Shown: positions 489 to 26,464 of the stretch, one piece after another | Numbering within the stretch: the first letter of the stretch is position 1 | How the letters are laid out: each line of letters opens with the position of its first letter | Source of the DNA: Bacillota bacterium | Lineage (GTDB): Bacteria > Bacillota > Clostridia > Christensenellales > UBA1242 | DNA length: 40,268 nucleotides | Direction: 5' to 3' | Assembly (NCBI GenBank): GCA_009780625.1 | Contig: WQZR01000001.1 | Location: 1 to 40,268, forward strand | Program-made: the position numbers and the translations under genes | Notes under the pieces: model-generated | Seen by the model: the letters and a program-made list of their open reading frames with translations, nothing else | The model's database searches: none | What the model was told of the DNA's origin: nothing

Positions 489-1249
489 TATAAAACTTCT
501 TCGAGGCAAAGACCCTTAGCATCAGCCGTTCCAATTCCATTGGTGCGGCTTTCTTTTTTTAGTGCGTTTTCTATGTCTTCTTTGGTAAGTTTGCCAAGTC
601 CAACATCAACAAGCGCTTGTGTCATAATTCTCACTTGGTTATGAAGAAAACTTCTTCCAGTGAAATATATTTTGATTATTGTAGGGGTCGCATCACCATG
701 CGACCCTGTTTCGAATCTTATATCTGTAAGTTTCCTCATATGGTCCGTCACTGCTGCTCCAGTCTTGCAAAAACTTTTAAAGTTTTTATAGCCAATCAAT
801 GAGGCAGAGGCTTCTTTCATTTTTTCTATGTCCAGTGGGCGTTTGATGTGCATTGCTGTGTCGCGTTCGAATGGGCACAAAACATCGCCGTTCCAAATTG
901 TGTAGGAATATGTTTTTGCCTTTGCTGAATATCTTGCCGAAAACTCTTTGTCTGCTTCTTCAACAGATAGAACTCTAATATCAGGTGGAAGCATTTGGTT
1001 TAAAGAAGTCTTTGCGTGTCCACAGTTTATTTTGTTTGAAGTAAAGAAATTCACGGTTTGCTTTTTTGCATGCACTCCAGAATCTGTTCTGCCAGAAGCA
1101 ACAACCGTCACCTTTTGTTGGCACACAGTTTCCAAAACAGTTTCCAAAACCCCTTGCACCGTTTTCTGTTTTGGTTGAATTTGAAAACCAGCATACCCCG
1201 TGCCGTCGAAACTTATAACCATCTTATGATTGAATTCAGATTTTTTCAT
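485..1249 (-). CDS. truA: tRNA pseudouridine(38-40) synthase TruA
   Basis: GRTDSGVHA catalytic motif, FLHNQVR motif, about 250 aa. Carries an in-frame REP insert (GSHGDATPT). Confidence 0.93.
   Translation of the reverse strand: MKKSEFNHKMVISFDGTGYAGFQIQPKQKTVQGVLETVLETVCQQKVTVVASGRTDSGVHAKKQTVNFFTSNKINCGHAKTSLNQMLPPDIRVLSVEEADKEFSARYSAKAKTYSYTIWNGDVLCPFERDTAMHIKRPLDIEKMKEASASLIGYKNFKSFCKTGAAVTDHMRKLTDIRFETGSHGDATPTIIKIYFTGRSFLHNQVRIMTQALVDVGLGKLTKEDIENALKKESRTNGIGTADAKGLCLEEVLY
681..706 (+). repeat. REP copy 1 (GTAGGGGTCGCATCACCATGCGACCC), inside truA, antisense to the gene
   Basis: GTAG plus a perfect 9-bp stem GGGTCGCAT/ATGCGACCC with loop CACC. The 30-mer 681-710 is identical to 9611-9640. 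Confidence 0.9.
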
Positions 1250-1268
1250 TATTTCTCATTATAGCATA

Positions 1269-1297
1269 TTGACAAACGCAAGATATGGCTATAAGAT
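1269..1297 (+). promoter_or_regulatory. Sigma-A-like promoter TTGACA-17-TAAGAT, 6 nt before the ATG at 1304 (leaderless candidate)
   Basis: Hexamers read directly. No SD between the -10 box and the ATG. Confidence 0.5.
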
Positions 1298-1303
1298 AGC
1301 AAT

Positions 1304-2425
1304 ATGAAAATTTATTTTAATCAAGATTGGCTAGATGGAAAAGGGCATGGTTCCGAAGACGCATGCAAATTCTTTTCTAAACACAGAATGGAGTTGTTCA
1401 ATGCCCTAAAAGAATCAACGCCACACGAATACATCACAGACAAAAAACTTATAGACGAAGACACAATCTTCTTCACTTCAACAATCGACAGCGAATTTGA
1501 CATGGGCGAATATAGCAAAATAGTTGAGGAAGAAAGAAAAGCAATTGACAAAATTCTTAAAACAAGTGAAATCAAACGCCCAAAGACGGCTTCCTTTTGG
1601 GAGTTTCTCGATAAGCCTTTCTTTCCAGTTATTGCCAAAAGCGAAATGCTGAACGCTGGAATGGATAAAATTCTTATTGAAAACAGAGAACAACTTGTTC
1701 CGTTCTTTGCTTTATATCAATATCTTAAAGAAGAAAAAATGGCTCTTTCAAAAAATGGAGGAACAATCACATATAAACATTTCGAAGAAATGGTTTTCCA
1801 GCAATATATTGAAACACCAAGCGAATATAACACTTCGCTTAGAGTCTACATCACAGGAGACCTTTCAATTGAAGCAGCAACAATCGAATATGGAAAGCCT
1901 GGCAAGAAAGAAATAAGAACACCGCTTGAGGGACTTATTCATGATTCACGAAGCCCGTTTTTTATAAACAACAAAAGCGTGACATCAAACTCAGAATGTG
2001 GCGGAGATAATATTGTTATTGGTAAAGATGTTGGCTATTCAAAAAAAGATAAAGAAATTTTGAAAGCTCATGGGTTTGACCCGCAGAATTGTGTTCTTCC
2101 AAAAGAACTAGAAGACATTTCAAAACGTATTATGAAAGGTTGTGCAAAGTTTCTAGGAATTGTTGCAGGGTTCGATTTCATTCTAAACAACGCCGACAAA
2201 AAGTGGTATTTTCTTGAAGTAGGCGGAAACCCAACACCGCACGACTATTCTTTGGTTCACGGACTAGGCTATAGCCCAACAGACAACACAATAAAAAATG
2301 TGACAAAGAGTGTGCAGATTGATTTGAAAGTGAGAACCGAAGCACTTGCAGAAATGATTTATCAAAGAAAAGAATCATTGAAGAAAAAACAAGCAAAGAA
2401 GAAACCAACAGAAGTGACAGCATAA
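1304..2425 (+). CDS. Hypothetical protein with an ATP-grasp-like C-terminal half
   Basis: LRVYITGD and GFDFILNNADKKWYFLEVGGNPTP resemble ATP-grasp strand motifs. N-terminal half not recognised. Confidence 0.5.
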   Translation: MKIYFNQDWLDGKGHGSEDACKFFSKHRMELFNALKESTPHEYITDKKLIDEDTIFFTSTIDSEFDMGEYSKIVEEERKAIDKILKTSEIKRPKTASFWEFLDKPFFPVIAKSEMLNAGMDKILIENREQLVPFFALYQYLKEEKMALSKNGGTITYKHFEEMVFQQYIETPSEYNTSLRVYITGDLSIEAATIEYGKPGKKEIRTPLEGLIHDSRSPFFINNKSVTSNSECGGDNIVIGKDVGYSKKDKEILKAHGFDPQNCVLPKELEDISKRIMKGCAKFLGIVAGFDFILNNADKKWYFLEVGGNPTPHDYSLVHGLGYSPTDNTIKNVTKSVQIDLKVRTEALAEMIYQRKESLKKKQAKKKPTEVTA

Positions 2426-2426
2426 A

Positions 2427-2456
2427 ACGCAAGAAAAAAACACTTGCGTTTTTTTA
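2427..2456 (+). terminator. Rho-independent terminator after 1304-2425
   Basis: ACGCAAG...CTTGCGT stem plus a T-run. Confidence 0.7.
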
Positions 2457-2472
2457 TGCGATAAGGTATAAT
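2444..2472 (+). promoter_or_regulatory. Promoter TTGCGT-17-TATAAT for rplM-rpsI, giving a leader of about 130 nt
   Basis: Hexamers read directly. The -35 overlaps the 3' arm of the upstream terminator. Confidence 0.5.
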
Positions 2473-2608
2473 CGCTAAGCGCTTAAAAGCATTTTTTTAT
2501 TAGCCCATAAGAAAGTGTCACAATAAGGGGAAACCCGCGCAGGAGAAAATCCACACCAGCATATGAAATGTTTATGCTGAGATTTAAAAAAGAGGAGAAA
2601 AAAGGAAA

Positions 2609-3058
2609 ATGAACAAAACAACAAAAATGGCAAACCCACAAACAGTTGTAAGAGAATGGCATGTTGTAGATGCAAGTGATATTCCACTAGGACGTCTTGC
2701 AAGCCAAATCGCTCAACTTCTTCGTGGAAAACACAAACCAACATTCACTCCACACACAGATTGTGGCGACTTTGTGGTTGTGCTAAACACAGACAAAATT
2801 GTTTTGACAGGTGCAAAACTAACAGACAAGTTTCACTACAGACCGTCAAGATACCCAGGCAACATGAAGCAAATTCAATATAAAGAACTTCTTGCAGAAA
2901 GAAGCGACTATATGCTTTGGCTTGCAGTAAAAAGAATGGTTCCAAACACAAGGCTTAGAGACGACCAAATGAACAGAATGAAAGCGTTCAAAGGTGCAGA
3001 ACACACTCACCAAGCTCAACAGCCAAAACCAAGAAAACTAGTGGGAGGAAGAAGATAG
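2609..3058 (+). CDS. rplM: 50S ribosomal protein L13
   Basis: [53 protein letters not shown] upstream. An alternative start at 2627 is possible. Confidence 0.95.
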
Positions 3059-3059
3059 T

Positions 3060-3461
3060 ATGAAAATAGTAAACAAACAAAAATTCTTCTGGGGAACTGG
3101 AAGAAGAAAGAAAGCAGTTGCAAGAGTTAGAATCGTTGGCGGCGGAGCAGGAAAGATTGAAATCAACCAAAAAGATATTAAAGAATATTTCCTAAACGAC
3201 ATCTTAAAGCAAATCGTAAACCAACCACTTGTGCTTACTGGAGAAAAAGTTGACGTTTTTGTAAACGTTAAAGGTGGCGGACTTACAGGACAAGCAGGCG
3301 CAATCAGACACGGGCTATCAAGAGCGCTTATCAAGTTCAACGAGTCGCTTAAACCAGAGCTTAAGAAAGCAGGATATCTAACAAGAGACCCAAGAGCGAA
3401 AGAGCGTAAAAAATATGGTCTTAAAGCAGCAAGAAAAGCTCCACAATTCTCAAAACGTTAA
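3060..3461 (+). CDS. rpsI: 30S ribosomal protein S9
   Basis: [19 protein letters not shown]...[35 protein letters not shown], coupled to rplM. Confidence 0.96.
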
Positions 3462-3467
3462 TACACA

Positions 3468-3494
3468 AAAAAATGCCTTTCGGCATTTTTTTTG
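3468..3494 (+). terminator. Rho-independent terminator after rpsI
   Basis: AAATGCC-TTTC-GGCATTT plus T8. Confidence 0.8.
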
Positions 3495-3501
3495 TTATAC
3501 T
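3493..3501 (+). promoter_or_regulatory. Extended -10 TGtTATACT, 6 nt before the ATG at 3508 (leaderless candidate)
   Basis: Read directly. No SD. Confidence 0.45.
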
Positions 3502-3507
3502 ATATAT

Positions 3508-3828
3508 ATGAATGCAAAACAGAAGTTGCAAGTTCTAACAAGAATTATTGGAATACTCAGCGGAGTGGTGTATTTTGTTGCCGGCGTACTGCTGATTATT
3601 TTTGGAATATACTTCAGCCTAGACTATCTATGGACAATCGGAATAATTGTCACAATCTTTGGAATTATTCACATAATCTTGTTTTCGCTTTCAATTCCAG
3701 ATTCGAACAGATTTGCAATCAAAGCCATGGGCTTTGGTTTCCTCACCGGAAACATTCTTATTCTCATTCTTTCACTAATCATTTTCTTCCTTCAAGACGA
3801 AGAGAATAAGAAAGATATAAAAGGATAA
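3508..3828 (+). CDS. Small integral membrane protein, paralog A (about 106 aa, 3 predicted TM)
   Basis: The long ORF 3415-3828 overlaps rpsI. The internal ATG at 3508 follows the rpsI terminator and a TGtTATACT box. Shares G.(I/V)HI..F...FA....(L/F)(T/V)G(N/S)...SI....(K/Q)D.E with 3833-4150 and 4845-5159. Confidence 0.7.
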   Translation: MNAKQKLQVLTRIIGILSGVVYFVAGVLLIIFGIYFSLDYLWTIGIIVTIFGIIHIILFSLSIPDSNRFAIKAMGFGFLTGNILILILSLIIFFLQDEENKKDIKG

Positions 3829-3832
3829 TTCT

Positions 3833-4150
3833 ATGAAAAAAGATTTAAGGTTTCTAACCAACTTGTTCTATTTAATCAACGGGGGCATATGTGTGCTTTC
3901 AGGACTTGTTTCAATAATTGTAGGTATTGTTTACTATATTGGAGACGATTTGCTTTGGTCTACAATTTTAATTCCTTCAGGAAGTATTATTGCGGTGGTT
4001 GGTTTTGTGCATATAATTTTTTTCCTCGCTCTAATGACAACCAAAACAAAAACATTTGCAATCGCATCTACGATAATCAGCTATTTGACAGGCAATATTT
4101 TTATATTTGTTCTTTCAATCGCAACCCTCATTGCAAAAGATACTGAATAA
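3833..4150 (+). CDS. Small integral membrane protein, paralog B
   Basis: 105 aa and hydrophobic. Aligns by eye with paralogs A and C. Confidence 0.75.
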   Translation: MKKDLRFLTNLFYLINGGICVLSGLVSIIVGIVYYIGDDLLWSTILIPSGSIIAVVGFVHIIFFLALMTTKTKTFAIASTIISYLTGNIFIFVLSIATLIAKDTE

Positions 4151-4155
4151 AAAAT

Positions 4156-4181
4156 AAACGCCGCTGGCGTTTTTATTTTTT
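4156..4181. terminator. Bidirectional terminator between membrane paralog B and the RAYT gene
   Basis: ACGCC-GCT-GGCGT flanked by A- and T-runs. Confidence 0.65.
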
Positions 4182-4760
4182 ATAAACAAAATAGAAATCA
4201 GTCAGCCAGTTGACAGGGTTATTTTGAATATACTGCCTTGTTTCATTCAACTCTTTTTTATTTCTGATTATTCTTTCATAATAGTTTCGCTGGAAGAATT
4301 TGTATTTTGCATCTATTGTGCAATTTGATTTGAAGTGATGAATAATTTGGCCTAGTGAAATCGTAGGGGTCGCACCTGAGAGCGACCCGTTGTGTAAAAT
4401 TTGAATAATCATGTGAATATGATTTGGCATGATTACAAAGGAATCAATCTTATATCTTTTGCTAGTTTCATTTATACGGTTTATTCTACCTAGTATTATT
4501 TTTCCTAGTGATGACAATTTGATTTGCGGGTCGCTCTCAGGTGCGACCCCTACATTTCCTCGAATTCCGTATTTTAACTCGTGTTCGGTAGGCATCAAAA
4601 CCTCGCTCAAAATGCAATGCCCGTCTTGAACACAAATAACCACATGATAAAACCGCGGCTCTTTATAGTCGAAACTTTTCAATCTGACATCTTTTCTTAC
4701 GGGCAATCCGCTTGCTTGTCCTCTAAGTTCTCTTTCAGTCATAAATCTATTATAGTACAT
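4173..4760 (-). CDS. REP-associated tyrosine transposase (RAYT / TnpA_REP, IS200-like Y1 HUH enzyme)
   Basis: VRLKSFDYKEPRFYHVVICV N-terminus, HUH motif MPNHIHMII, C-terminal FQRNYYERIIRN...YIQNNPVNW. Contains two in-frame REP copies. Confidence 0.85.
   Translation of the reverse strand: MYYNRFMTERELRGQASGLPVRKDVRLKSFDYKEPRFYHVVICVQDGHCILSEVLMPTEHELKYGIRGNVGVAPESDPQIKLSSLGKIILGRINRINETSKRYKIDSFVIMPNHIHMIIQILHNGSLSGATPTISLGQIIHHFKSNCTIDAKYKFFQRNYYERIIRNKKELNETRQYIQNNPVNWLTDFYFVYKK
4363..4388 (+). repeat. REP copy 2 (GTAGGGGTCGCACCTGAGAGCGACCC), inside the RAYT gene
   Basis: Read directly. Encodes GSLSGATPT in the RAYT frame. Confidence 0.9.
4528..4553 (-). repeat. REP copy 3, exact reverse complement of copy 2, inside the RAYT gene
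   Basis: GGGTCGCTCTCAGGTGCGACCCCTAC on the + strand. Encodes VGVAPESDP in the RAYT frame. Confidence 0.9.
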
Positions 4761-4793
4761 TTGTTCTAAATATCAAAGCAGATGTAAAACGCT

Positions 4794-4820
4794 TTGAATT
4801 TTTCGGGGGGGGGGTAGAAT
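4794..4820 (+). promoter_or_regulatory. Promoter TTGAAT / 15-nt spacer containing G10 / TAGAAT upstream of membrane paralog C
   Basis: G run at 4805-4814 counted from the sequence. The spacer is 2 nt shorter than the 17-nt optimum. Confidence 0.5.
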
Positions 4821-4844
4821 TAAGTGATTGGAAGGAGATTAGAC

Positions 4845-5159
4845 ATGAAAGAAAAATTACATGATTTAACTGTACTGTTTTGGTTGCTTTGCGGAATATT
4901 ATACATACTAACAGCGGTCGTATTGATAATAATAAATTTTAATTCTGCGACTGACGCTTTTGGTGCTTGGGGTTTTAGTATTTTAGTACTTGGTGCTGTG
5001 CACATATTGTTTTATCTTTTTAGGACTCTAGACTGGAACAAGTTTGCAAAAACATCTATAATTGTAAGTTTCTTTGTTGGCAGTGCCTTAATCTTTAGCT
5101 TTTCAATAGCGCTGTATCTAGCAAAAGATTCAGAAGAACTGAATAAAAAAAATACTTAG
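4845..5159 (+). CDS. Small integral membrane protein, paralog C
   Basis: SD GGAAGGAG at 4830-4837, 7 nt before the ATG at 4845 (the track starts at GTG 4824). Paralogous to 3508-3828 and 3833-4150. Confidence 0.7.
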   Translation: MKEKLHDLTVLFWLLCGILYILTAVVLIIINFNSATDAFGAWGFSILVLGAVHILFYLFRTLDWNKFAKTSIIVSFFVGSALIFSFSIALYLAKDSEELNKKNT

Positions 5160-5174
5160 ACAAAAAATACTTCT

Positions 5175-5702: not shown

Positions 5703-5710
5703 ACAAATAG

Positions 5711-5722: not shown

Positions 5723-5727
5723 AGTAG

Positions 5728-9343: not shown

Positions 9344-9913
9344 ATGAAAAACTTTGAAGGAACAGAATTCTTTTTAGGCACACCAACAAGGCTTGATTAT
9401 TTAAGAGAACTAAAACAGAGGCAGGAGATGGAAAGAGAAGAAACATTCGAACAAAGAGTTCTTAGAGAAAGAGAGCGTGAGGCAGAGAAGGTTGAACTGC
9501 AAACAAAAATGATTAGAGAAAAAATTCAAACACAACTGCTTCTTGAAGACTTTTCAAACACCAGTTTTTTGGAGTTTAAAAAAGAAATTGTACTCCGTGC
9601 ACCTGAAGGTGTAGGGGTCGCATCACCATGCGACCCTGTTGAGGTTGTCGACATTCGAGAGCGTATTGTTTCAAATGTAGGGGACGCGCCACAGAGCGTC
9701 CCAACAGAAAGAACCTTCAACGAAGAAGATTTCTCTAAACTTCTAAAAAAAAAGAAGAACAGCAAAAAAGGTGTTTTTGGCGAAATCGTTTTTCTTATAA
9801 CCCTCTTCTTTATGGCAACGCTTTTGTTGGTTATGATTTCTGGAACTTTTGACATAGGAATCATAGGAACATTTCTAAGAGAAGAGACAAATTTTCATGA
9901 AATATTTAGTTAA
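9344..9913 (+). CDS. Hypothetical protein with a charged N-terminal region and a C-terminal TM anchor
   Basis: Overlaps the downstream M50 protease gene by 17 nt. Contains two in-frame REP copies (GVGVASPCDP, NVGDAPQSVP). Confidence 0.6.
   Translation: MKNFEGTEFFLGTPTRLDYLRELKQRQEMEREETFEQRVLREREREAEKVELQTKMIREKIQTQLLLEDFSNTSFLEFKKEIVLRAPEGVGVASPCDPVEVVDIRERIVSNVGDAPQSVPTERTFNEEDFSKLLKKKKNSKKGVFGEIVFLITLFFMATLLLVMISGTFDIGIIGTFLREETNFHEIFS
9611..9636 (+). repeat. REP copy 4 (identical to copy 1)
   Basis: In frame in ORF 9344-9913 (GVGVASPCDP). Confidence 0.9.
9677..9702 (+). repeat. REP copy 5, stem variant GTAGGGGACGCGCCACAGAGCGTCCC
   Basis: T->A in the 5' arm is matched by A->T in the 3' arm, so pairing is kept. 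In frame (NVGDAPQSVP). Confidence 0.85.
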
Positions 9914-11037: not shown

Positions 11038-11067
11038 AAAAAGGGTCGCACCACGGTGCGACTTTTA
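11038..11067 (+). terminator. REP-related hairpin acting as a terminator after 10635-11036
   Basis: GTCGCACC..GGTGCGAC stem followed by TTTT. Confidence 0.55.
11043..11062 (+). repeat. Partial REP-like hairpin GGGTCGCACCACGGTGCGAC (no GTAG head), intergenic
   Basis: Shares GGGTCGCACC with the REP family. Flanked by an A-tract and TTTT. Confidence 0.6.
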
Positions 11068-12799: not shown

Positions 12800-15700
12800 A
12801 TGGGGAATGAAAGAAACAATCCAGGATTTTTGAAAAGAATGGCAATAGGAACAGTAGCGTTTTTCACTAGACCAAGAGCGGGCGCATTGGCGGCTTTAGC
12901 ACTTGTTCCAGTTGCAGCAATAACACTAACAGCGTGCGGAGGAGGTGGCGGCGGACAACAACAGCAACAAACAGTTCAACTTGGAAACGTTGCAGGTCTT
13001 GCAGTTGCAAAATCTGGTGAAGTGACATGGACGTCTCCAGCGTCAGGAACACACGAACACGGTGCGAATATCCGACTTACAATAAACGGAACAGACTCAA
13101 CAGTTGCGGCAACTGCTGGAAGTTTCCAAATAGCAGATGTTCAACCAGAAACAACATATAATGTAAGTGCAGTTTTCACAAGAGCAGAAAACTCAACTCA
13201 TAAATTTACAAATTCTGCAGCGGCAGCAACAGCAAACATGACAACAGACCCAGCAACTGCACAAAAAACAACAGTGACACTCGCTAACGTTCAAGGTCTT
13301 GCAGTTGCAAAATCAGGTGCAATCACTTGGACAGTTCCAACAGCAGGAACAAACGAGCGTGATGCAAACATTCAATTGACAGTGAACAGCGGCTCGCCAA
13401 TCACTTTGGCAGCAACAGCAGGCACACATCAAATTGCAAGCGTTCAACCACTAACAACATATAACGTAAGTGCAATTTTCTCAAGAGCAGAAAACGATAC
13501 GCATATATTCAACAACAGTGCAGTGCCAGCAACAGCAAGCATGACAACAGAGCCTCCTCAAGTTCAATCTGTTTCTTTAAATATTGACACAAGAGTGATT
13601 TCTGTAAGCAGAGTTTCAGGTCCTGCAAACCTTGCAATTCCAGTTGACGTGAAACTGATTAACAACGCAAACCAAGCAGTTATATGGGAAGGAATAGTTG
13701 CGGCAAATCAAACAACTGTAACAATTCCACAACCTAGCTGGCAAACAGACGTTACGGTTAGAGTTGAAGCATCAAAACAAGGTTCAACAGCAGCTGCAGT
13801 AAGTTCAGTTGCAGTATACATTCCAGAACCAGGTGTAACCCAACAAGACGCACAACTTGGAAACATCACAAACCTTCAAATTTCAACAGCGGGTCTAGTT
13901 ACATGGACACGCCCAACAGGAGTACACGATGCAGACGCATCAGTTGCGTTAACAATCAACGGAACAACTCACACAATCGCACCAGATGCACCATCACAAA
14001 CATTCCAAATAACAACAACACCAGGCATGAAATATGAAGCAAGTGCAATCATGACAAGAACAAGCAATGCACAATATAACTTCCTTCCAAGCACAACGCC
14101 TGCAACTGCAGAACGCACAATCGACAAACAGTCAATTCAACTTGGGCAAATTTCAAACCTAAGAATAAATGCAGCAGGTCTAATTCAATGGGACCTTCCA
14201 GCAGGGGCACACAACTCAGGTGCAATTGTTAATATGACAATTATTGGGGTAAATGGAAACAATCCTTTTGTTCCAGCAAACGCAACAAGCCACCAGCTTA
14301 CATCAGGCATCACACCAGGTGCAAACTTCAGTGTTAGTGCTTTCCTAACAAAAGCAGAAGATGCAACAACAATCTTCACACAAGGACCAACTGTAGGACC
14401 ACAAACACTTCAAGTTCCAAAAACACAAGTTCAACTTGGACAGATTTCAAATCTTAGAATCACAAGCGGCGGTCTAATCCAGTGGGACAGACCAGCAGGA
14501 GAGCATAACGAAGGCGCAACAGTTAACCTAATAATTCCAGGAATCAACAGTGGGCAACCTTTCCAAGCCGAAGGTCCAACAAGTCACCAACTTATGAGCA
14601 CACAAGCCGGCAATCAGTTTACTGTAAGTGCATTCTTAACAAGACCAGAAAACACAACAACAACATTCACACAGGGTGCAACAACATCGCCAGTGAACCT
14701 TACAGTTCCAAAAGTTCAAGCTCAACTTGGAAACGTAACAGGCGTTTCAATTTCAAACACAGGTCTAGTTCAATGGACGCGTCCAACAGGAACACACGAC
14801 ACAGCCGCGTCTGTTCAACTTACAATTGCAGGATATAGAAACGGAGAAGCTTTCACAGTAAGCCCGCAAAACTCATCGAGCTATCAAATGTTGGCAGCAA
14901 ACGCAGGTGGAACACTTGCAGGAAAAACATTCTCTGTAAGTTCAGCAATAATGACAAGAGCCGAAAACGACACTCATACATTCAGTAACAGCCAAACACC
15001 AGCAACAAGCAATCCTGTAACAATTCCAGCTGGGTTGACAAACGTTGCAAGAGATGTTGTAGACCTTACAGCAGAAAGTAATTATTTAGTTATGACACTT
15101 GCTCCAGAGTTCTGGGAGTTTAGTGACCAGCGAGTTAGAGTTCAAGTTCGTAGCCAAAATGGAGGAGAAGCGATTTCGAATTGGCTTGAAGTTTGGAGCA
15201 ACACGCCATTTAGAGAAGGAAACACAAATCAAGTTCGCATTCCACTAGCAGAATTTAATTTTGACGATATGATAGATAATGCAGTGCCAACAGGAGTTCC
15301 TCTTCAATTTAGAACTCAAGCAAGAAACACCTCTGCAAACTGGATTACTGCAAAAAACTTTAACGATATAACAGTTCCAGTTCCAAAAACACAAGTTCAA
15401 CTTGGAAACCTAACAAACGTTAGGATAAACAATGCTGGTCTTGTTCAGTGGGATATTCCAGCAGGGGCAGGAAATGCAGGTGCACAAATTCAACTGACAA
15501 TTTCTAACTATAAAGGTGGAGACCCAATCACATTAAGTCCGGGAGCAACTTCATATCAGATGCAGGCTGCAAACGCAGGGGGAACGCTTGTTGGAAAAAC
15601 ATTCACTGCGTCGGCACAACTGATGGGTTATGAGGACCCGACAACTGTTTTCCTATCTGGCTCGGCAGCAACTTCTGCTCCTAGAACAATTCAAGAAATT

Positions 15701-17014
15701 CAACAACCAGGGCAAGTTCCAGGTGCAACAAACATCATACCTATAGACGTGTGGAATGCAATGCAACAGGGTGGAGTTTTGATGGGCAATAACGCAGACC
15801 TAAATAGACTGCGCGCTGCAATTGGTGGAAGACTTGTGGAAGAAGGCTTAATGTCTGGAAACCAAAATATTGTTGGTGTGCTTAACATGCAAACAATCAA
15901 CACAACTGGTGATGGTTGGTTCCCACTAGGTGCGGGAGTCAATGGTCTTATGACAGCAGATAATGACACTTTAACTTTCACTGTGTTCATAAGAGATGGA
16001 AGTGGTCCAATTGAAATGCATAATGTGACATTCACGCTTGTGAAAGACTGGGATATTCGTCAACTTCAAAATAGTGGAAATAACTTAAACTCTGTTATAA
16101 ATTCGCTTATTGGTTCTTCTGACAACGGCGGACCAATCAATGCTGGCAGCACATCTGTAAGCATGACACGAGCAGACACAAACTTTGCAACTTGGGCAAT
16201 GACTGAACAAGTTGCGCCACAAATCACACAAAACGGAAATACGGTTATTGTTTCAGGGTTAAACCCAACAAACGGTCTAGTTGTAACAAGAACCTGGGGT
16301 GCTGGTGGACTTACTTCAGGTGCACAAACAGCATGGAACAACGGTGTTACAGAACCAGGTGGAATTATTGCATGGCTTCAAAGTGCTCCTCCAGAGGAAA
16401 CCAACACTCATGCAGCTGCTCAACTTTTGATTCAATATGGTGTTACAACTATAGAAGAATTAGTAATGTTGGCTTATATGGACTTTGGTGACGGAGAACT
16501 AACTGGAGCACAAACCGCACTTATAGCACACTTCTCACGACAAGTGACGACAAACTTAGGACAAGACATATTCGGTTCACTCAGCGGACGTATGACGGTA
16601 AACAACAATGAAGTTATTGACGCAATCAAAGCTGCAGATTTACACCTCCCACCTTCAAATGAAGGACCAGATGGTGCAGATATGGGAATAAGCAGTGCGA
16701 TGATGCCAATGAGTTTCGGAAACGACGCATATGATGTGTTTACAATTGGAACAGTTGTGAGCCCAGAAATTGAAAAAGCAATGGCAGAAATAAAAGCAAC
16801 GCTTGGCGAGTTGTATGAAAAGAAAGCAGAACTTGAAGCAATGGCAGATAAGGAAACAATCATTGATGGCTTAAGCCCATATGCTGCAGAAAGTTTTAAA
16901 CTAGACTTAAAAATCAAAAAACTTGAAGCAGAGCTTAAAGCATATCAGGAACAAATTATGCCAGAACAAATCTTTATGGTTAAAAAGCCAACAAACACAG
17001 ACCCACTAGCATAA
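12800..17014 (+). CDS. Giant surface lipoprotein with seven ~100-aa beta-sandwich-like repeat modules
   Basis: Signal peptide plus lipobox LTAC followed by GGGGGGQQQQQ. Repeated (V/A)QLGN..G(L/V).(V/I)...G.(V/I).W..P.G.H module. C-terminal coiled coil. Confidence 0.85.
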   Translation: MGNERNNPGFLKRMAIGTVAFFTRPRAGALAALALVPVAAITLTACGGGGGGQQQQQTVQLGNVAGLAVAKSGEVTWTSPASGTHEHGANIRLTINGTDSTVAATAGSFQIADVQPETTYNVSAVFTRAENSTHKFTNSAAAATANMTTDPATAQKTTVTLANVQGLAVAKSGAITWTVPTAGTNERDANIQLTVNSGSPITLAATAGTHQIASVQPLTTYNVSAIFSRAENDTHIFNNSAVPATASMTTEPPQVQSVSLNIDTRVISVSRVSGPANLAIPVDVKLINNANQAVIWEGIVAANQTTVTIPQPSWQTDVTVRVEASKQGSTAAAVSSVAVYIPEPGVTQQDAQLGNITNLQISTAGLVTWTRPTGVHDADASVALTINGTTHTIAPDAPSQTFQITTTPGMKYEASAIMTRTSNAQYNFLPSTTPATAERTIDKQSIQLGQISNLRINAAGLIQWDLPAGAHNSGAIVNMTIIGVNGNNPFVPANATSHQLTSGITPGANFSVSAFLTKAEDATTIFTQGPTVGPQTLQVPKTQVQLGQISNLRITSGGLIQWDRPAGEHNEGATVNLIIPGINSGQPFQAEGPTSHQLMSTQAGNQFTVSAFLTRPENTTTTFTQGATTSPVNLTVPKVQAQLGNVTGVSISNTGLVQWTRPTGTHDTAASVQLTIAGYRNGEAFTVSPQNSSSYQMLAANAGGTLAGKTFSVSSAIMTRAENDTHTFSNSQTPATSNPVTIPAGLTNVARDVVDLTAESNYLVMTLAPEFWEFSDQRVRVQVRSQNGGEAISNWLEVWSNTPFREGNTNQVRIPLAEFNFDDMIDNAVPTGVPLQFRTQARNTSANWITAKNFNDITVPVPKTQVQLGNLTNVRINNAGLVQWDIPAGAGNAGAQIQLTISNYKGGDPITLSPGATSYQMQAANAGGTLVGKTFTASAQLMGYEDPTTVFLSGSAATSAPRTIQEIQQPGQVPGATNIIPIDVWNAMQQGGVLMGNNADLNRLRAAIGGRLVEEGLMSGNQNIVGVLNMQTINTTGDGWFPLGAGVNGLMTADNDTLTFTVFIRDGSGPIEMHNVTFTLVKDWDIRQLQNSGNNLNSVINSLIGSSDNGGPINAGSTSVSMTRADTNFATWAMTEQVAPQITQNGNTVIVSGLNPTNGLVVTRTWGAGGLTSGAQTAWNNGVTEPGGIIAWLQSAPPEETNTHAAAQLLIQYGVTTIEELVMLAYMDFGDGELTGAQTALIAHFSRQVTTNLGQDIFGSLSGRMTVNNNEVIDAIKAADLHLPPSNEGPDGADMGISSAMMPMSFGNDAYDVFTIGTVVSPEIEKAMAEIKATLGELYEKKAELEAMADKETIIDGLSPYAAESFKLDLKIKKLEAELKAYQEQIMPEQIFMVKKPTNTDPLA
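12974..15694 (+). repeat. Seven diverged intragenic repeat modules
   Basis: Module starts at about 12974, 13274, 13850, 14135, 14429, 14720 and 15395. Each begins xQLG(N/Q) and ends (T/S)A.(F/M)(T/S)R.EN..(H/T).F. Two unrelated inserts interrupt the array at aa 257-350 and 745-865. Confidence 0.8.
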
Positions 17015-19915: not shown

Positions 19916-19920
19916 TGATT

Positions 19921-20205: not shown

Positions 20206-20206
20206 T

Positions 20207-21301: not shown

Positions 21302-21303
21302 AC

Positions 21304-21876: not shown

Positions 21877-21885
21877 CAACCTTAG

Positions 21886-21894
21886 TGGTATAAT
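21886..21894 (+). promoter_or_regulatory. Extended -10 TGgTATAAT, 7 nt before the rluB ATG (leaderless candidate)
   Basis: Read directly. No SD. Confidence 0.5.
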
Positions 21895-21901
21895 ATAGAA
21901 T

Positions 21902-22741
21902 ATGAGATTAAATAAATATATCGCGTCGACCACTGATTATAGCCGTAGGAAAAGTGAAGATGCCATTAAAGAAGGCAGGGTTTTGATTAACAACGAGGTT
22001 GTTAAAAATCTTGCAACCACCGTGGGTGAAGAAGATGTTGTGGAGTTAGACGGCAAAATTTTGTTTCTTCCAAAAAACTTTGTGTATATATGCATGAACA
22101 AACCAAAGGGCTACATCACATCAGTGACAGACGACAGAGGCAGAAAGACTGTTCTTGATTTAATTAAAGAAAAAGACCTGCCAAGAATTTATCCTGTAGG
22201 GCGTTTAGACTACGACACAGAAGGCATGCTTATTCTAACCAACGACGGAGAACTGACAAGACAACTAACACATCCTTCAAGCAAGGTTAAAAAGATATAT
22301 CAACTTAACATCGAAGGAGAACTTTCAAAAGACGATATCAAAAAACTTGAAACTGGCGTAACGCTGGAGTTTGGCTATAAAACCGCACCAGCAACAGTTG
22401 AGATTATTGAAGTTCAATCGGCAAAACAGATTTATAGAAACAAGGTGAAAAACTATATCAAAGAAGAAGAAAAAGCAGGGCTAGACGAAAAGACAATCAA
22501 ACAAAATCTAGAAGACAACCCAATCAAGAAAAAATATGAAGACCCGAACTTCAAAATAACAAGATTTCAGTTGTCAATAACCGAAGGAAAAAACAGACAA
22601 GTCAGAAAAATGCTCGAAGCAATCGGCAAACACATAATTCTTCTAAAACGTGTTCAAATCGGGCAATTGAAAATGGGCGGCTTAAACCGCGGGGAATATA
22701 AGTTCCTAACACCGCACGAAGCTTACTTACTAAAACAATAA
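21902..22741 (+). CDS. rluB: rRNA pseudouridine synthase, RsuA/RluB family (S4 domain plus catalytic domain)
   Basis: MRLNKYIA..SRRKSEDAIKEGRVLIN S4 domain and GRLDYDTEGMLILTNDGEL catalytic motif. Lys/Glu-rich insertion before the C-terminal strand. Confidence 0.88.
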   Translation: MRLNKYIASTTDYSRRKSEDAIKEGRVLINNEVVKNLATTVGEEDVVELDGKILFLPKNFVYICMNKPKGYITSVTDDRGRKTVLDLIKEKDLPRIYPVGRLDYDTEGMLILTNDGELTRQLTHPSSKVKKIYQLNIEGELSKDDIKKLETGVTLEFGYKTAPATVEIIEVQSAKQIYRNKVKNYIKEEEKAGLDEKTIKQNLEDNPIKKKYEDPNFKITRFQLSITEGKNRQVRKMLEAIGKHIILLKRVQIGQLKMGGLNRGEYKFLTPHEAYLLKQ

Positions 22742-22742
22742 T

Positions 22743-22767
22743 GTAGGGGTCGACCACTGGGCGACCC
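22743..22767 (+). repeat. REP copy 7 (25-nt subtype GTAGGGGTCGACCACTGGGCGACCC), intergenic rluB-ruvA
   Basis: Starts 1 nt after the rluB TAA. Same subtype as copy 12. Confidence 0.85.
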
Positions 22768-22789
22768 GAGCGACCAAAGGGAGCAGAAA

Positions 22790-23395
22790 ATGATTTCATT
22801 TATTGAAGGAAAAATTGTAGAGAAAACAGATAAGAGCATTATCGTTAAATGCGGACATATGGGCATGGAAATTTTGGCGTCTTCGTTTTCGATTGCAAAT
22901 GCAAAGCACACAGGCGAAGAAGACTTTTTTTATACATACCTTCATGTTAGGGAAGACGCGTTGGTGCTTTTAGGTTTCAAAACAAAAGAAGAACGCGGAA
23001 TATTTTTAAATCTGATTGAAGTTTCGGGAATTGGTCCAAAAGCAGCAATGACAATTCTAAGCGCAATGCCACTTGAGAACTTAGCTTCAGCAATTGTAAG
23101 GGGAGATGTGAATGCCCTTGCTTCAGCAAAAGGCGTTGGAAAGAAAACAGCAGAACGCATTGTGCTTGAACTTAAAGAAAACATTAGAAAGAATTACAAA
23201 TCAGATGTAGGGGTCGCGCCTCAGAGCGACCCGCAATCAGACATAAGTCTTAGCCAAATTGAGCAAGACGCACAAATCGGGCTAATGAGTCTAGGGCTTA
23301 CCAAAAAAGAATCTGCAGAAGTGATTAAAAAAACGAGAGAGCATTCACCAAAAACCAGCGAAGAAATAATTAAACTCTCATTAAGGATGTTATAG
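22790..23395 (+). CDS. ruvA: Holliday junction branch migration complex subunit RuvA
   Basis: MISFIEGKI N-terminus, GIGPKAAMTILS and AKGVGKKTAERIVLELK HhH motifs. REP insert in the domain II-III linker. Confidence 0.92.
   Translation: MISFIEGKIVEKTDKSIIVKCGHMGMEILASSFSIANAKHTGEEDFFYTYLHVREDALVLLGFKTKEERGIFLNLIEVSGIGPKAAMTILSAMPLENLASAIVRGDVNALASAKGVGKKTAERIVLELKENIRKNYKSDVGVAPQSDPQSDISLSQIEQDAQIGLMSLGLTKKESAEVIKKTREHSPKTSEEIIKLSLRML
23207..23232 (+). repeat. REP copy 8 (GTAGGGGTCGCGCCTCAGAGCGACCC), inside ruvA
   Basis: Encodes VGVAPQSDP. Differs by 1 nt from copy 11 over GTAG...GACCCGCAA. Confidence 0.9.
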
Positions 23396-23396
23396 T

Positions 23397-23597
23397 ATGA
23401 AGAAATATTTAAAAGATAAGATTTTTTGGATTCTAGTAATAATCGCAGCATTGTCTGGTATTTTGGGAATTACTTTAAGTTTTTTTCCAGAAAATCTTAC
23501 AGCTAGTTTGTTCGCAGCAATATTCACGATTACATTCGCTCTTTCTCTATTGTCAATATTGATATATATGGTCATTAAGGAGTTTAGATATAAATAA
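23397..23597 (+). CDS. Small membrane protein (2 TM) between ruvA and ruvB
   Basis: ATG lies 1 nt after the ruvA stop. Hydrophobic 66 aa, followed by a terminator. Confidence 0.5.
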   Translation: MKKYLKDKIFWILVIIAALSGILGITLSFFPENLTASLFAAIFTITFALSLLSILIYMVIKEFRYK

Positions 23598-23604
23598 GTA
23601 TTTC

Positions 23605-23628
23605 AAAACTCCTAACGGAGTTTTTTTG
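23605..23628 (+). terminator. Terminator between the ruvA/small ORF and ruvB
   Basis: AAACTCC-TAAC-GGAGTTT plus a T-run. Confidence 0.7.
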
Positions 23629-23637
23629 TGCTAAAAT
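23629..23637 (+). promoter_or_regulatory. Extended -10 TGcTAAAAT, 6 nt before the ruvB ATG (leaderless candidate)
   Basis: Read directly. Follows a terminator. No SD. Confidence 0.5.
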
Positions 23638-23643
23638 ATAAGC

Positions 23644-24705
23644 ATGGACCCTAAAGATTTTATTAAGTCAGCAAAACCTGCTGGAACACAAATAGAAGTT
23701 CGCGATGTTGCTCCTATAAAACAGGAACAAGATATCGATTTTGAAAACAAACTTAGACCAAAGAGTCTAGTTTCTTTTGTTGGTCAGAAAAAGATTAAAG
23801 AAAACCTGAATGTATATATCTCTGCAGCAAAGAAAAGAAATGAAGTTCTAGACCACGTTTTGCTATATGGTCCTCCAGGACTTGGAAAAACAACTCTTGC
23901 ACGCATCTTAGCAACAGAAATGAACGCACAGATTAGATACACAACTGGTCCAACAATTGAGCGTGCTGCAGACCTTGCCAGCATTCTTTCAAACATCAAA
24001 CGTGGTGATGTTTTATTCATAGACGAAATTCATGGACTTGCTAAAAATATCGAAGAAATTTTATATGGAGCAATGGAAGATTTCAGCCTAGACCTAATCA
24101 CAGGAAAAGGTCCATCTGCAAACAGCATTCGCATTTCAATTGAACCATTCACGCTTATAGGAGCCACCACAAGGGCAGGGTTAATCTCTGCACCACTTAG
24201 AGACCGTTTCGGTGTTGTTGAACGTCTGGAGCTATATACAGCCGAAGAACTGGCTCAAATCGTTTCACGCAGTGCTGAAATTCTTGGAATTAAGATTTCA
24301 CAAGATGCAGCAACAGAACTAGCTAAACGCGCACGCGGAACGCCAAGAATTGCAAACAGACTTATTCGAAGAGTTAGAGACTTTGCGGAATTTGCAGGGA
24401 AAGATTCAATAGGTATTGAAGAAACAAAACATGCTCTAGAAAAACTTGGAATTGATGCACTAGGTCTAGACGCAACAGACATAAAACTACTTAAAGCAAT
24501 TCACGAAAAATATTCAAACGGTCCAGTTGGACTTGAAACACTTTCAGCAATCACAGGTGAAGATTCTAAAACAATCGAAGATATGTATGAGCCATATTTG
24601 ATGGCGTTAGGCTTACTAACAAAAACACCACGCGGAAGAATAATCACCGACGCAGCAATCGAACACATCACAGGAAAACCAGCAGGAGGACAACTCAGTT
24701 TCTAA
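23644..24705 (+). CDS. ruvB: Holliday junction DNA helicase RuvB
   Basis: [13 protein letters not shown] Walker A, VLFIDEIH Walker [16 protein letters not shown]. Confidence 0.96.
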
Positions 24706-24706
24706 A

Positions 24707-25780
24707 ATGAAAACAGACATCAAAGACTATTGGTATGATTTGCCACCAGAACTTATTGCACAAACTCCACTAAAGAAGCGCGACGAAAGTAAGCTTCTCT
24801 ATTTTGATGGCAAAAATGTAAACCACGGAAACAAGTTTTTAGATTTGCCAAAACTATTAAAAAAAGGCGACATTCTTGTTGTAAACGAAACAAAGGTTTT
24901 GCCGATTAGACTTATTGGAAAAAAATCAACTGGTGCAGAGTGCGAAGTTTTTCTCTTAAAAGATATAGGGGTCGCACCTCAGGGCGACCCGAACAAAAAA
25001 ACATACAACGCTCTAATCAGACCAGCAAAAAGACTTAAAGTAGGAGACGCAGTTGACTGCGGCAAAATGAAAGTTAGAATATCAGAGAAACACGAAGATG
25101 GTCAAGCAACAGTTGAACTAAACTACACTGGCATCTTCGAAGAAGTTCTAGATGAGGTGGGAGAAGTCCCTCTTCCTAGTTACATAAAAAACGTAGGGGT
25201 TGCACCTCAGGGCGACCCGCTCTGCGAACGCTATAACACAATCTATGCATGTCACGCAGGCAGCAGCGCTGCACCAACTGCAGGGCTTCATTTCACACCT
25301 GAGGTGATTAAACAAGTTGAAGCGATGGGCGTGGAAATTGTTCGCATAATTCTTCATGTGGGTCTGGGAACATTTAGACCAATCAAGGTGGATAACATCC
25401 TAAATCACGACATGCACTCAGAAGAATATTTCATTTCACCTGAAGCGGCAGAAAAGATTAACAGAGCGAAAAGAGAGAATAGAAGAGTTGTTGGTGTTGG
25501 AACAACCAGCATGCGAGCTCTTGAACACAACAGTGCACAATATGGCGAAATCAAGGCAGGAAGTTTTCTTGCAAACAGTTTTATTCATAACGACTACGAT
25601 TTTAAAATAATCGATGCAATGATTACAAACTTCCACCTGCCAAATTCAACACTAGTTTTGTTGGTTTCGGCATTCGTTGGTTTTGACAACTATAAAGAAA
25701 TATATAAACAAGCCGTGGAACAGCAATATAGATTTTTTTCTTTCGGAGACTCTAGTTTCCTAATCAGACCAAGGAAATAA
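24707..25780 (+). CDS. queA: S-adenosylmethionine:tRNA ribosyltransferase-isomerase QueA
   Basis: YDLPPELIAQTP, GSSAAPTAGLHFT, GVGTTSMRALE, ITNFHLPNSTL. Two in-frame REP inserts. Confidence 0.95.
   Translation: MKTDIKDYWYDLPPELIAQTPLKKRDESKLLYFDGKNVNHGNKFLDLPKLLKKGDILVVNETKVLPIRLIGKKSTGAECEVFLLKDIGVAPQGDPNKKTYNALIRPAKRLKVGDAVDCGKMKVRISEKHEDGQATVELNYTGIFEEVLDEVGEVPLPSYIKNVGVAPQGDPLCERYNTIYACHAGSSAAPTAGLHFTPEVIKQVEAMGVEIVRIILHVGLGTFRPIKVDNILNHDMHSEEYFISPEAAEKINRAKRENRRVVGVGTTSMRALEHNSAQYGEIKAGSFLANSFIHNDYDFKIIDAMITNFHLPNSTLVLLVSAFVGFDNYKEIYKQAVEQQYRFFSFGDSSFLIRPRK
24965..24990 (+). repeat. REP copy 9 (ATAGGGGTCGCACCTCAGGGCGACCC), inside queA
   Basis: Encodes IGVAPQGDP. The head is ATAG instead of GTAG. 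Confidence 0.85.
25193..25218 (+). repeat. REP copy 10 (GTAGGGGTTGCACCTCAGGGCGACCC), inside queA
   Basis: Encodes VGVAPQGDP. A C->T change in the 5' arm leaves a T:G wobble. Confidence 0.85.
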
Positions 25781-25897
25781 TATTTTTGAAAGATTGATTT
25801 ATACGAGAGAGCAAAAACATACTGTTTGAGCCTAGAGGCGAGTTGTATTTTTTTGCGAATGAGTGTAAACAATCTTGAAAAAAGCATAGTATGAATT

Positions 25898-26464
25898 ATG
25901 AAAATAATAAAACGAAAAATGTTTATGGGGGCAAACACGGCAGACGGGTTTGTTTCTTTTTATGACCAAATCGTTGACTGGTATGACATCAAAAAAATGT
26001 ATATATTGAAGGGCGGAAGCGGAGTTGGCAAAAGCACATTTATAAAAAAATTCACAGAAAGAGTTATTGCGAATGTAGGGGTCGCGCCTAAGAGCGACCC
26101 GCAAACTTTAACAATCGATTTCATCATGTGCAGTTTCGACCCCAACTCCTACGACGGCGTGATTATTCACGAACTGGGCTTGGCAATAATTGATGGAACG
26201 CTTCCACACATCGTCGACCCAAAATATCCAGGACTTGTTGAAGAAATAATTGATTTATCAAAATATATAAACCCAAATGCTGTAGGGGTCGACCGTTGGG
26301 CGACCCGTGACCTAAAACAACAAAAAAGCGAACTATTTAAGTCCGCATATAAAACTCTAAACGATGCAATGGCTGTGCATATGCAACTTGAAGTTGTCTA
26401 TAAAGATGCTGTTGATTTCAAAAAAGTAGACAAACTAATTAGTCACATAGTCTCCAAGATATGA
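25898..26464 (+). CDS. P-loop ATPase, apparently only the N-terminal half of a longer family
   Basis: GANTADGFVSFYD...LKGGSGVGKSTF Walker A...DGTLPHIVDP. Its 3' end overlaps the convergent gene by 30 nt. Two in-frame REP inserts. Start uncertain. Confidence 0.55.
   Translation: MKIIKRKMFMGANTADGFVSFYDQIVDWYDIKKMYILKGGSGVGKSTFIKKFTERVIANVGVAPKSDPQTLTIDFIMCSFDPNSYDGVIIHELGLAIIDGTLPHIVDPKYPGLVEEIIDLSKYINPNAVGVDRWATRDLKQQKSELFKSAYKTLNDAMAVHMQLEVVYKDAVDFKKVDKLISHIVSKI
26075..26100 (+). repeat. REP copy 11 (GTAGGGGTCGCGCCTAAGAGCGACCC), inside the P-loop ATPase gene
   Basis: Encodes VGVAPKSDP. Confidence 0.9.
26282..26306 (+). repeat. REP copy 12 (25-nt subtype GTAGGGGTCGACCGTTGGGCGACCC), inside the P-loop ATPase gene
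   Basis: Encodes VGVDRWATR. The 25-nt length shifts the frame of the 3' arm relative to 26-nt copies. Confidence 0.85.

What the first reader, a model, noticed from the sequence alone, without database searches (positions are those of the whole stretch)
681..26306. Strong strand bias of the REP copies, independent of host-gene orientation
Seen: 10 of 11 full copies have the GTAG-first strand on the + strand of the window. This includes the copy in truA and one copy in the RAYT gene, both of which are minus-strand genes. Only 4528-4553 is inverted. Most genes here are on the + strand, as expected for a Bacillota leading strand.

Established: IS200/IS605-type Y1 transposases act on single-stranded DNA. 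They show an insertion bias tied to the lagging-strand template of the replication fork.

Inference: the orientation is set by replication direction, not by transcription or translation. This argues for true DNA-level transposition rather than convergent protein motifs.
Basis: partly seen in the sequence, partly recalled or inferred. Interest (0 to 1): 0.6.

Follow-up and report, generated by a model that had tools for sequence, protein, structure and literature searches.

The report
One-strand bias of REP repeats
Short GTAG-headed hairpin repeats (REPs) in this small gut Clostridia genome nearly all point the same way as replication and as most genes; the bias is real and genome-wide, but whether replication or gene direction sets it could not be settled on this fragmented genome.

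Summary
Eleven full REPs (GTAG + GGGTCGC-N8-GCGACCC) lie at 681-26306, ten with GTAG on the + strand. The + strand is G-rich and gene-rich.

Only truA tests independence from gene direction. The RAYT copy is half of an in-frame inverted pair that all four clear RAYT paralogs carry.

Genome-wide (135 copies in 967 kb), tight inverted doublets are symmetric. Singlets are biased: 47/55 follow the replication proxy and 68/74 follow the host or flanking gene.

Where the two proxies disagree, five copies follow the gene and one (truA) follows replication. Of those five, ybeY and argR, probably the C33 gene, and rsmI from a looser set are single-gene inversions seen only in this lineage. They could have carried the REP with them. 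murG is head-on in most relatives and has a sense copy.

In three other low-GC Clostridia datasets with the same REP head, 106/128 singlets follow replication. Head-on genes there have 1 sense copy against 10.4 expected.

Best reading (about 0.5): a strand-specific, replication-linked bias as in IS200/IS605. A transcription-linked orientation is not excluded. DNA-level spread is well supported. This is an ordinary REP/RAYT system with an unusually intragenic habit.

The parts
681..706 (+). REP singlet inside truA (485-1249, -). It is antisense to the gene and encodes GSHGDATPT. Positions 680-710 are identical over 31 nt to 9610-9640.
4173..4760 (-). RAYT (REP-associated Y1 transposase) gene. 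The HUH motif (PNHIHMII) and the Tyr motif (RQYIQNNP) are intact. It carries two in-frame REPs.
4363..4388 (+). REP inside the RAYT gene, antisense to it (GSLSGATPT), directly after the HUH motif. It is half of a conserved inverted pair and not an independent insertion.
   Evidence: (I4)
4528..4553 (-). REP inside the RAYT gene, sense to it (VGVAPESDP). It is the only minus-strand copy in the window and the partner of 4363-4388.
   Evidence: (I4)
9611..9636 (+). REP singlet, sense and in frame (VGVASPCDP), in ORF 9344-9913 (+; no family match).
9677..9702 (+). REP singlet, sense and in frame (VGDAPQSVP), in the same ORF. Its stem carries a compensated change (GGGACGC/GCGTCCC).
22743..22767 (+). 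REP of the 25-nt variant in the 48-nt spacer between a pseudouridine synthase gene (21902-22741) and ruvA.
23207..23232 (+). REP singlet, sense and in frame (VGVAPQSDP), in ruvA (22790-23395). It sits in the linker between the HhH domain and the C-terminal domain.
24965..24990 (+). REP singlet (head ATAG), sense and in frame (IGVAPQGDP), in queA (24707-25780). The position is a clean gap in nine orthologues.
25193..25218 (+). Second REP singlet in queA, sense (VGVAPQGDP). It is an insertion relative to the orthologues.
26075..26100 (+). REP singlet, sense (VGVAPKSDP), in the P-loop ORF 25898-26464.
26282..26306 (+). REP of the 25-nt variant, sense (VGVDRWATR), in the same P-loop ORF. It lies near the 3' end of the convergent minus-strand ORF 26435-27085.

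Best explanation
The repeats are a GTAG-type REP family spread as DNA by the genome's own RAYT (Y1 HUH) transposases, which act on one folded single strand, the GTAG strand. Single copies end up mostly on the strand that serves as lagging-strand template, which is the G-rich strand and the sense strand of co-oriented genes. This is the pattern known for the related IS200/IS605 elements. About 84% of coding bases here are co-oriented with replication, so most copies also read sense to their host gene.

Tight inverted doublets carry a GTAG strand on both strands and show no bias. Sense copies now found in head-on genes are mostly explained by single-gene inversions in this lineage that carried an existing copy along.

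Shown: the bias, its sign, its generality, the strand-specific folding signal and the inversions. Inferred: that replication, rather than transcription, is the cause.
For: The window has 10/11 copies on +, and the + strand is the G-rich, gene-rich strand.

In G000, 89 singlets and 46 doublet members were found. Singlets lie 67/81 on the G-rich strand and 70/82 on the majority gene strand. Doublets split exactly 50:50. The rule-based test gives 47/55 singlets following the replication proxy (p=8e-8).

The proxy is sound. GC skew at four-fold sites on the sense strand is +0.23 in co-oriented genes and -0.13 in head-on genes.

Other low-GC genomes with the same REP head show the same bias: G042 49/57, the 8-kb loci 29/36 and G049 28/35. 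G049 has two long contigs, each with a constant sign of GC skew.

In those genomes, 58 head-on genes have 1 sense-associated singlet against 10.4 expected if gene direction ruled (P=0.0004), and 4 antisense ones.

Among G000 sense copies at head-on genes, ybeY, argR and rsmI are inverted only in G000 relative to about ten family relatives, and the C33 gene probably is.

truA is co-oriented with local skew in at least 7 of 11 relatives but is head-on here. Its REP follows replication and is 31/31 identical to another copy, so it is probably young.

Stop-codon avoidance alone predicts 38% sense copies; 94% are observed. Antisense-encoded peptides are tolerated in 16 intragenic doublets. Peptide-level selection therefore does not explain the bias.

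Stem mismatches are 13 G.T against 0 A.C.

The lagging-strand preference of IS200/IS605 elements and the single-strand requirement of TnpA-REP are established (PMC6006769, PMC3333891).
Against: Gene direction predicts orientation slightly better than the replication proxy in G000 (68/74 against 47/55). In six discordant contexts five copies follow the gene, a nominal likelihood ratio of about 8000 for the gene model. With a looser REP definition the split is six to one.

murG is opposite to its neighbours in most of the 11 relatives and carries a sense copy.

In one divergent spacer on contig C12, three REPs each point towards the gene they precede.

Twelve of 28 intergenic singlets are followed directly by a T-run, like terminators.

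In convergent or divergent spacers only 9/13 copies follow replication.

Antisense copies at head-on genes are fewer than a pure replication model predicts (4 against about 10 in the other genomes, P=0.02).

The age difference between discordant and concordant copies is not significant (p=0.11).

No origin or terminus could be mapped.
Confidence: 0.5

Rival explanations
1. Orientation is tied to transcription. One version is mechanistic: the RAYT uses the displaced non-template strand of transcribed DNA (transcription bubble or R-loop) as its single-stranded target. The other is selective: copies survive only when the GTAG hairpin is on the mRNA-sense strand, for example as terminator or stabiliser hairpins. 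The apparent replication bias would then be a by-product of the co-orientation of genes with replication.
For: In G000, 68/74 singlets are sense to the host or flanking gene. Five of six discordant contexts follow the gene, or six of seven with the loose definition.

The density of sense copies is similar at head-on genes (6/73) and co-oriented genes (62/547) in G000.

murG, head-on in most relatives, has a sense copy.

REPs in a divergent spacer each face their own gene.

Twelve of 28 intergenic singlets carry a T-run directly after the hairpin, and others sit just upstream of ribosome-binding sites.

R-loop single-stranded DNA was proposed as a substrate for TnpA-REP (PMC3333891). REPs are thought to be transcribed RNA elements (PMC3733652).
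Against: In the other low-GC genomes head-on genes have 1 sense copy against 10.4 expected (P=0.0004), and 4 of the 5 copies there are antisense.

Most of the discordant sense copies in G000 sit in genes inverted only in this lineage.

The truA copy is antisense. The hairpin forms equally well in RNA in either orientation. Lower expression of head-on genes could rescue the mechanistic version, but that was not testable here.
Confidence: 0.25
2. Both constraints act together. Insertion is replication-linked, into the lagging-strand template, and retention is favoured on the sense strand. Copies therefore accumulate where the two coincide, in co-oriented genes, and are depleted at head-on genes in either orientation.
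For: REPs of both orientations are under-represented at head-on genes in the other genomes: 5 observed against about 12 expected.

In G000, antisense copies are about ten times more frequent per gene at head-on genes than at co-oriented genes (4/73 against 3/547). Sense copies against replication are also enriched there.

There is a strong frame preference, 44 of 48 sense copies in the GTA GGG GTC frame. This shows that selection on the product acts as well.
Against: The numbers at head-on genes are very small. Several of those copies lie in convergent spacers and may belong to the co-oriented neighbour. Inversions confound the G000 counts.
Confidence: 0.2
3. The window's bias is chance, or comes from local tandem copying of a few elements.
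For: Only 9 independent copies remain after removing the RAYT pair. Some neighbouring copies are near-identical.
Against: Nine of nine has p=0.004. The same bias is seen on dozens of other contigs and in other genomes. The copies lie in unrelated genes up to 25 kb apart.
Confidence: 0.02

Closest known systems
GTAG-tagged REP families and their RAYT / TnpA-REP transposases (Nunvar 2010; Ton-Hoang 2012; Di Nocera 2013)
   Same: A 5' GTAG sits at the foot of a short GC-rich hairpin. Copy number is high, with several stem and loop subfamilies. Cognate Y1 HUH transposase genes are present. Heads-out inverted doublets occur. Intragenic in-frame copies have already been reported in other species (PMC3733652).
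   Different: Here about three quarters of the copies are inside ORFs, two thirds are singlets rather than doublets, and there are 4-5 RAYT paralogs. A strand bias of singlets is not described in the papers I read.
IS200/IS605 family (IS608, ISDra2): single-strand transposition into the lagging-strand template
   Same: The catalytic fold is related (HUH + Tyr). One active strand carries a hairpin with a 5' guide tetranucleotide. Genomic copies are oriented with replication, and the sign of the bias is the same here.
   Different: REPs are 26-27 nt and non-autonomous. No target tetranucleotide or circular intermediate was shown here. Coupling to the fork is inferred from proxies only.
TnpA-REP subclass 2.4 (Quentin et al. 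2018, PMC6006769)
   Same: [quoted passage not shown]
   Different: Here there is a second in-frame copy upstream of HUH, so the pair brackets the HUH strand. The subclass was not assigned by phylogeny.
Rickettsia palindromic elements (RPE) and other in-frame palindromic inserts
   Same: Palindromic repeats are inserted in frame in housekeeping proteins and tolerated in loops and linkers.
   Different: RPE-1 elements are much longer (about 100-150 bp). No cognate transposase is known for them.

Membership tests
GTAG-type REP | Conserved GTAG tetranucleotide immediately 5' of a short GC-rich hairpin | tested here: met
   All 11 window copies and 135 genome copies have the form [G/A]TAG + GGGNNNN-loop-NNNNCCC with at most 1 stem mismatch.
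GTAG-type REP | High copy number, dispersed through the genome | tested here: met
   135 strict copies in 967 kb, spread across more than 60 of the 104 contigs. The reversed control pattern gave 0 matches.
GTAG-type REP | Extragenic location | tested here: not met
   102 of 135 copies lie inside ORFs, including truA, ruvA and queA. Intragenic REPs are a known minority habit in other species (PMC3733652).
GTAG-type REP | Cognate RAYT gene associated with the same REP type | tested here: met
   4-5 Y1_Tnp loci were found. The four with a clear RAYT ORF each carry their own REP subtype inside the gene.
RAYT / TnpA-REP | HUH motif plus catalytic Tyr (and Asn four residues after it) | tested here: met
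   PNHIHMII and RQYIQNNP are present. The region aligns to E. coli TnpA-REP 4ER8 across the HUH segment and the YIYINP segment.
RAYT / TnpA-REP | Curated family model score | tested here: inconclusive
   Pfam Y1_Tnp scores 29.6 bits against a cut-off of 23. NCBIfam REP_Tyr_transpos scores 52.8 bits against a cut-off of 80 and matches only partially. The two REP inserts interrupt the match.
IS200/IS605-like replication-coupled orientation | Active strand predominantly on the lagging-strand template (the G-rich strand) | tested here: met
   47/55 singlets in G000 and 106/128 in other genomes follow the proxy. The proxy was validated by four-fold-site GC skew.
IS200/IS605-like replication-coupled orientation | Orientation flips at origin and terminus | not testable with these tools
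   G000 is a 104-contig, 84% complete assembly. No origin or terminus lies on a REP-bearing contig that I could identify. No closed genome of the genus is held.
IS200/IS605-like replication-coupled orientation | Orientation independent of host-gene direction | tested here: inconclusive
   In G000, 1 of 6 discordant contexts follows replication, but most of the other five are in lineage-specific inversions. In other genomes 4 of 5 copies at head-on genes follow replication.
REPIN (Bertels and Rainey) | The replicative unit is an inverted REP doublet, and singlets are decayed remnants | tested here: not met
   There are 23 doublets against 89 singlets. 63% of the concordant singlets (27 of 43) have an identical twin elsewhere in the genome, so they are not decayed.

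The most novel reading that the evidence does not exclude
REP singlets are inserted into the non-template strand exposed by transcription (R-loop or transcription-bubble single-stranded DNA) rather than at the replication fork. This would be a transcription-coupled form of single-strand transposition, and it would explain why copies sit sense-oriented inside genes, 5' leaders and 3' ends.
Probability: 0.2. Interest if true: 0.7.

Novelty: new member of a known kind. Interest (0 to 1): 0.4.

Why it matters
If the replication reading holds, it would be genome-scale evidence that RAYT-mobilised single REPs share the lagging-strand-template preference shown experimentally for IS608 and ISDra2. That would tie REP spread to the replication fork.

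If the transcription reading holds, it would point to a different single-stranded DNA source for a Y1 transposase.

Either way, the case shows that a strand bias seen in one window of a Bacillota genome cannot separate replication from transcription. It also shows that lineage-specific gene inversions must be checked before head-on genes are used as a test.

Tried and rejected
1. The high-GC Oscillospiraceae genome G041 (311-kb contig). REPs there form complex clusters in convergent spacers, GC skew is weak, and singlets show no bias (29 against 34). It is not comparable.
2. G043 (313 copies). Almost all copies are doublets and contigs break at them, so there are few singlets.
3. The metagenome scan with RuvB. 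The best hit was 60% identical, so there are no close strains and no empty-site polymorphism could be examined.
5. The 'counter/antisense' ORFs in other genomes turned out to be spurious low-complexity ORFs. Gene calls were rebuilt with a codon-usage score.
6. Copy age (distance to the nearest copy, stem mismatches) of discordant against concordant copies was not significant, p=0.11.
7. Orthologues of the C54 host gene were too weak to infer its ancestral orientation.
8. Peptide-level selection as the cause of the sense bias was rejected. Antisense-encoded peptides occur in 16 intragenic doublets, and the stop-codon filter predicts the opposite bias.
9. The hairpin at 11043-11067 has a REP-like stem and a T-run but no GTAG head. 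It was not counted.
Full report
**What is there.** The window is the whole of contig C1 of a 967-kb, 104-contig, 84%-complete assembly with 37.8% GC. A search for TAGGGGTCGC-N8-GCGACCC gave 17 hits, palindromic double hits included, against 0 in 100 shuffles. A hairpin-aware scan gives 11 full copies between 681 and 26306. Ten have GTAG on the + strand and one (4528-4553) is on the - strand. The + strand is the G-rich strand. Cumulative GC skew rises across the window and 34 of 42 called genes lie on it.

**Where the copies sit.** Most are inside real genes and in frame. The hosts are truA (485-1249, -), a Y1 transposase (4173-4760, -), ruvA, queA (two copies), a P-loop ORF (two copies) and ORF 9344-9913 (two copies). 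An alignment of QueA with orthologues from nine related genera shows both REP-encoded peptides (IGVAPQGDP, VGVAPQGDP) as lineage-specific insertions.

**The RAYT pair.** Copies 4363(+) and 4528(-) are perfectly complementary and bracket the HUH motif. The same two positions carry a sense copy and an antisense copy in the RAYT paralogs on C13, C5 and C59. Each paralog carries its own REP subtype. In-frame REPs inside tnpA-REP genes are already described for subclass 2.4 (PMC6006769). These two copies are therefore not independent insertions. Of the remaining nine, all on +, only the truA copy lies in a minus-strand gene. The window alone gives one data point for 'independent of host-gene orientation'.

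**The whole genome.** There are 135 strict copies. Forty-six are members of tight inverted doublets with heads out and a 0-11 nt spacer, and 89 are singlets. Doublets split exactly 50:50, as they must. Singlets lie 67/81 on the G-rich strand and 70/82 on the majority gene strand of their contig.

GC skew at four-fold sites on the sense strand is +0.23 in co-oriented genes and -0.13 in head-on genes. The contig-majority strand is therefore a genuine leading-strand proxy.

I then applied a rule-based test. Genes were called with a codon-usage score. A singlet was a copy with no opposite-strand copy within 200 nt. Replication direction was taken from the other genes on the contig and from GC skew. 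Under these rules 47/55 singlets follow the replication proxy and 68/74 follow the host or flanking gene. In concordant contexts 43/45 follow both.

**Peptide selection is not the cause.** The sense orientation has one frame that is always open, whereas all three antisense frames are open in most copies. Stop avoidance alone therefore predicts 38% sense copies, but 48 of 51 intragenic singlets are sense (p=4e-17). Antisense-encoded peptides (GSxxxxTPT and similar) are tolerated in 16 intragenic doublets. A strong preference for the GTA GGG GTC frame (44 of 48) shows that selection on the product also acts. Stem mismatches are 13 G.T against 0 A.C, so the GTAG strand is the one that must fold.

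**Replication or transcription?** In the six contexts where the two proxies disagree, five copies follow the gene: murG, argR (3' end, with a T-run), a C33 membrane-protein gene, a C54 membrane-protein gene and ybeY. One copy, truA, follows replication. With a looser REP definition the split is six to one, adding rsmI. Taken at face value this favours gene direction, with a likelihood ratio of about 8000.

I then compared each host gene's neighbourhood with 10-11 genomes of other genera in the same family.
- ybeY lies upstream of era and is co-directional with it in all 11 relatives. In G000 it sits inverted between era and recO.
- argR is co-directional with recN in all nine relatives where both genes were found, and divergent from it in G000.
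- rsmI is inverted relative to its upstream neighbours only in G000, and the C33 gene probably is as well.
- murG is opposite to its neighbours in most relatives, so its head-on orientation is old.
- truA is co-oriented with local GC skew in at least 7 of 11 relatives. It is therefore probably inverted in G000 too, and its REP is 31/31 identical to the copy at 9610-9640.

So most 'gene-following' copies could simply have been carried along by an inversion. One probably young copy in an inverted gene follows replication, and one copy in an old head-on gene follows the gene. The age difference between these groups is not significant.

**Other genomes.** The same REP head and stem occur in many Clostridia assemblies. 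They were not found in 38 of the 40 sampled genomes of the same family and order, and one same-order genome has two matches.

In the low-GC sets, singlets follow the replication proxy 49/57 in G042, 29/36 in 8-kb loci from many assemblies, and 28/35 in G049. G049 has two long contigs, each with a constant sign of GC skew.

A per-gene association test on these sets found 127 sense copies at 709 co-oriented genes. At 58 head-on genes there is 1 sense copy against 10.4 expected if gene direction ruled (P=0.0004), and 4 antisense copies against about 10 expected if replication alone ruled (P=0.02). Two of those four sit a few bases downstream of a co-oriented neighbour in a convergent spacer. In convergent or divergent spacers overall, 9/13 copies follow replication.

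**Further points for a transcription link.** Twelve of 28 intergenic singlets are followed directly by a T-run, and others sit just upstream of ribosome-binding sites. In one divergent spacer three REPs each face their own gene.

**Literature.** The lagging-strand-template preference is established for IS608 and ISDra2. TnpA-REP needs single-stranded DNA, and its authors named both the lagging-strand template and R-loops as possible sources (PMC3333891, PMC6006769). Intragenic GTAG REPs are known (PMC3733652). I found no description of a strand bias of REP singlets in the papers read. The one related note is of opposite orientations of REP tandem arrays on the two halves of the Pseudomonas fluorescens SBW25 genome (PMC3116915).

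**Verdict.** The bias is real, strong, genome-wide and shared by related REP families. It has the sign expected for insertion of the GTAG strand into the lagging-strand template. I rate that mechanism the most likely, at about 0.5. A transcription-linked orientation gets about 0.25 and a combination of the two about 0.2. The sub-claim of DNA-level spread rather than convergent protein motifs is well supported.

The system is a member of the known REP/RAYT kind with an unusually intragenic habit.

Noticed in passing
G000 contigs C55:2328-3083, C9:18536-18994, C72:2052-2906, C33:5317-5829; window 485-1249: Several REP-bearing genes (ybeY, argR, rsmI, a small membrane-protein gene, probably truA) are single-gene inversions relative to about ten related genera. 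In the first four the REP lies near one end of the inverted gene, or just beyond it. REPs or RAYT nicking may promote local inversions, or this may be coincidence. The baseline inversion rate was not measured.
   Followed up: partly
window 4173-4760; G000 C13:868-1392, C5:10675-11193, C59:224-907: Every clear RAYT paralog carries a sense REP upstream of HUH and an antisense REP directly after HUH, both in frame. Each paralog has its own REP subtype, which also occurs elsewhere in the genome. This is similar to the published subclass 2.4, but with a pair bracketing the HUH strand.
   Followed up: partly
G000 intergenic singlets, e.g. C8:10932, C11:5583, C38:6877, C80:2281, C96:2056: Twelve of 28 intergenic singlets, many of them the 25-nt variants, end 2-7 nt after a stop codon and are followed directly by TTTTTT. 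They look like working intrinsic terminators built from REPs.
   Followed up: partly
window 11043-11067: A terminator hairpin, GGGTCGCACC-ACGG-GGTGCGAC followed by TTTT, has a REP-like stem but no GTAG head. It is either a decayed REP or a hint that REP stems and terminators exchange sequence.
   Followed up: no
window 12800-17014: A 1404-aa ORF contains diverged tandem repeats of about 290-300 nt (families D1, D2, D5, D9). GC skew is locally negative here. It is probably a repetitive surface protein.
   Followed up: no
window 27171-27246 and 30444-30600: Three tRNA-like genes appear to lie on the minus strand (repeat family D7), head-on to the prevailing gene direction. They were not checked with the tRNA finder.
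   Followed up: no
loci L001-L116 (genome-contig scan); G042, G043, G049: The identical REP head and stem (GTAGGGGTCGC...GCGACCC) occur in many gut Clostridia assemblies from rabbit, goat, human and termite, with 25-31% GC, and in high-GC Oscillospiraceae. They were not found in 38 of the 40 sampled genomes of this genome's own family and order. This patchy spread suggests horizontal transfer of the RAYT/REP system. In G043 contigs break at REP doublets.
   Followed up: partly
G000 intragenic sense singlets: Forty-four of 48 sense intragenic copies use the frame GTA GGG GTC (VGVAPxSDP), although a second frame (CRGRxxxRP) is open for about half of the variants. This indicates selection on the encoded loop peptide.
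   Followed up: partly
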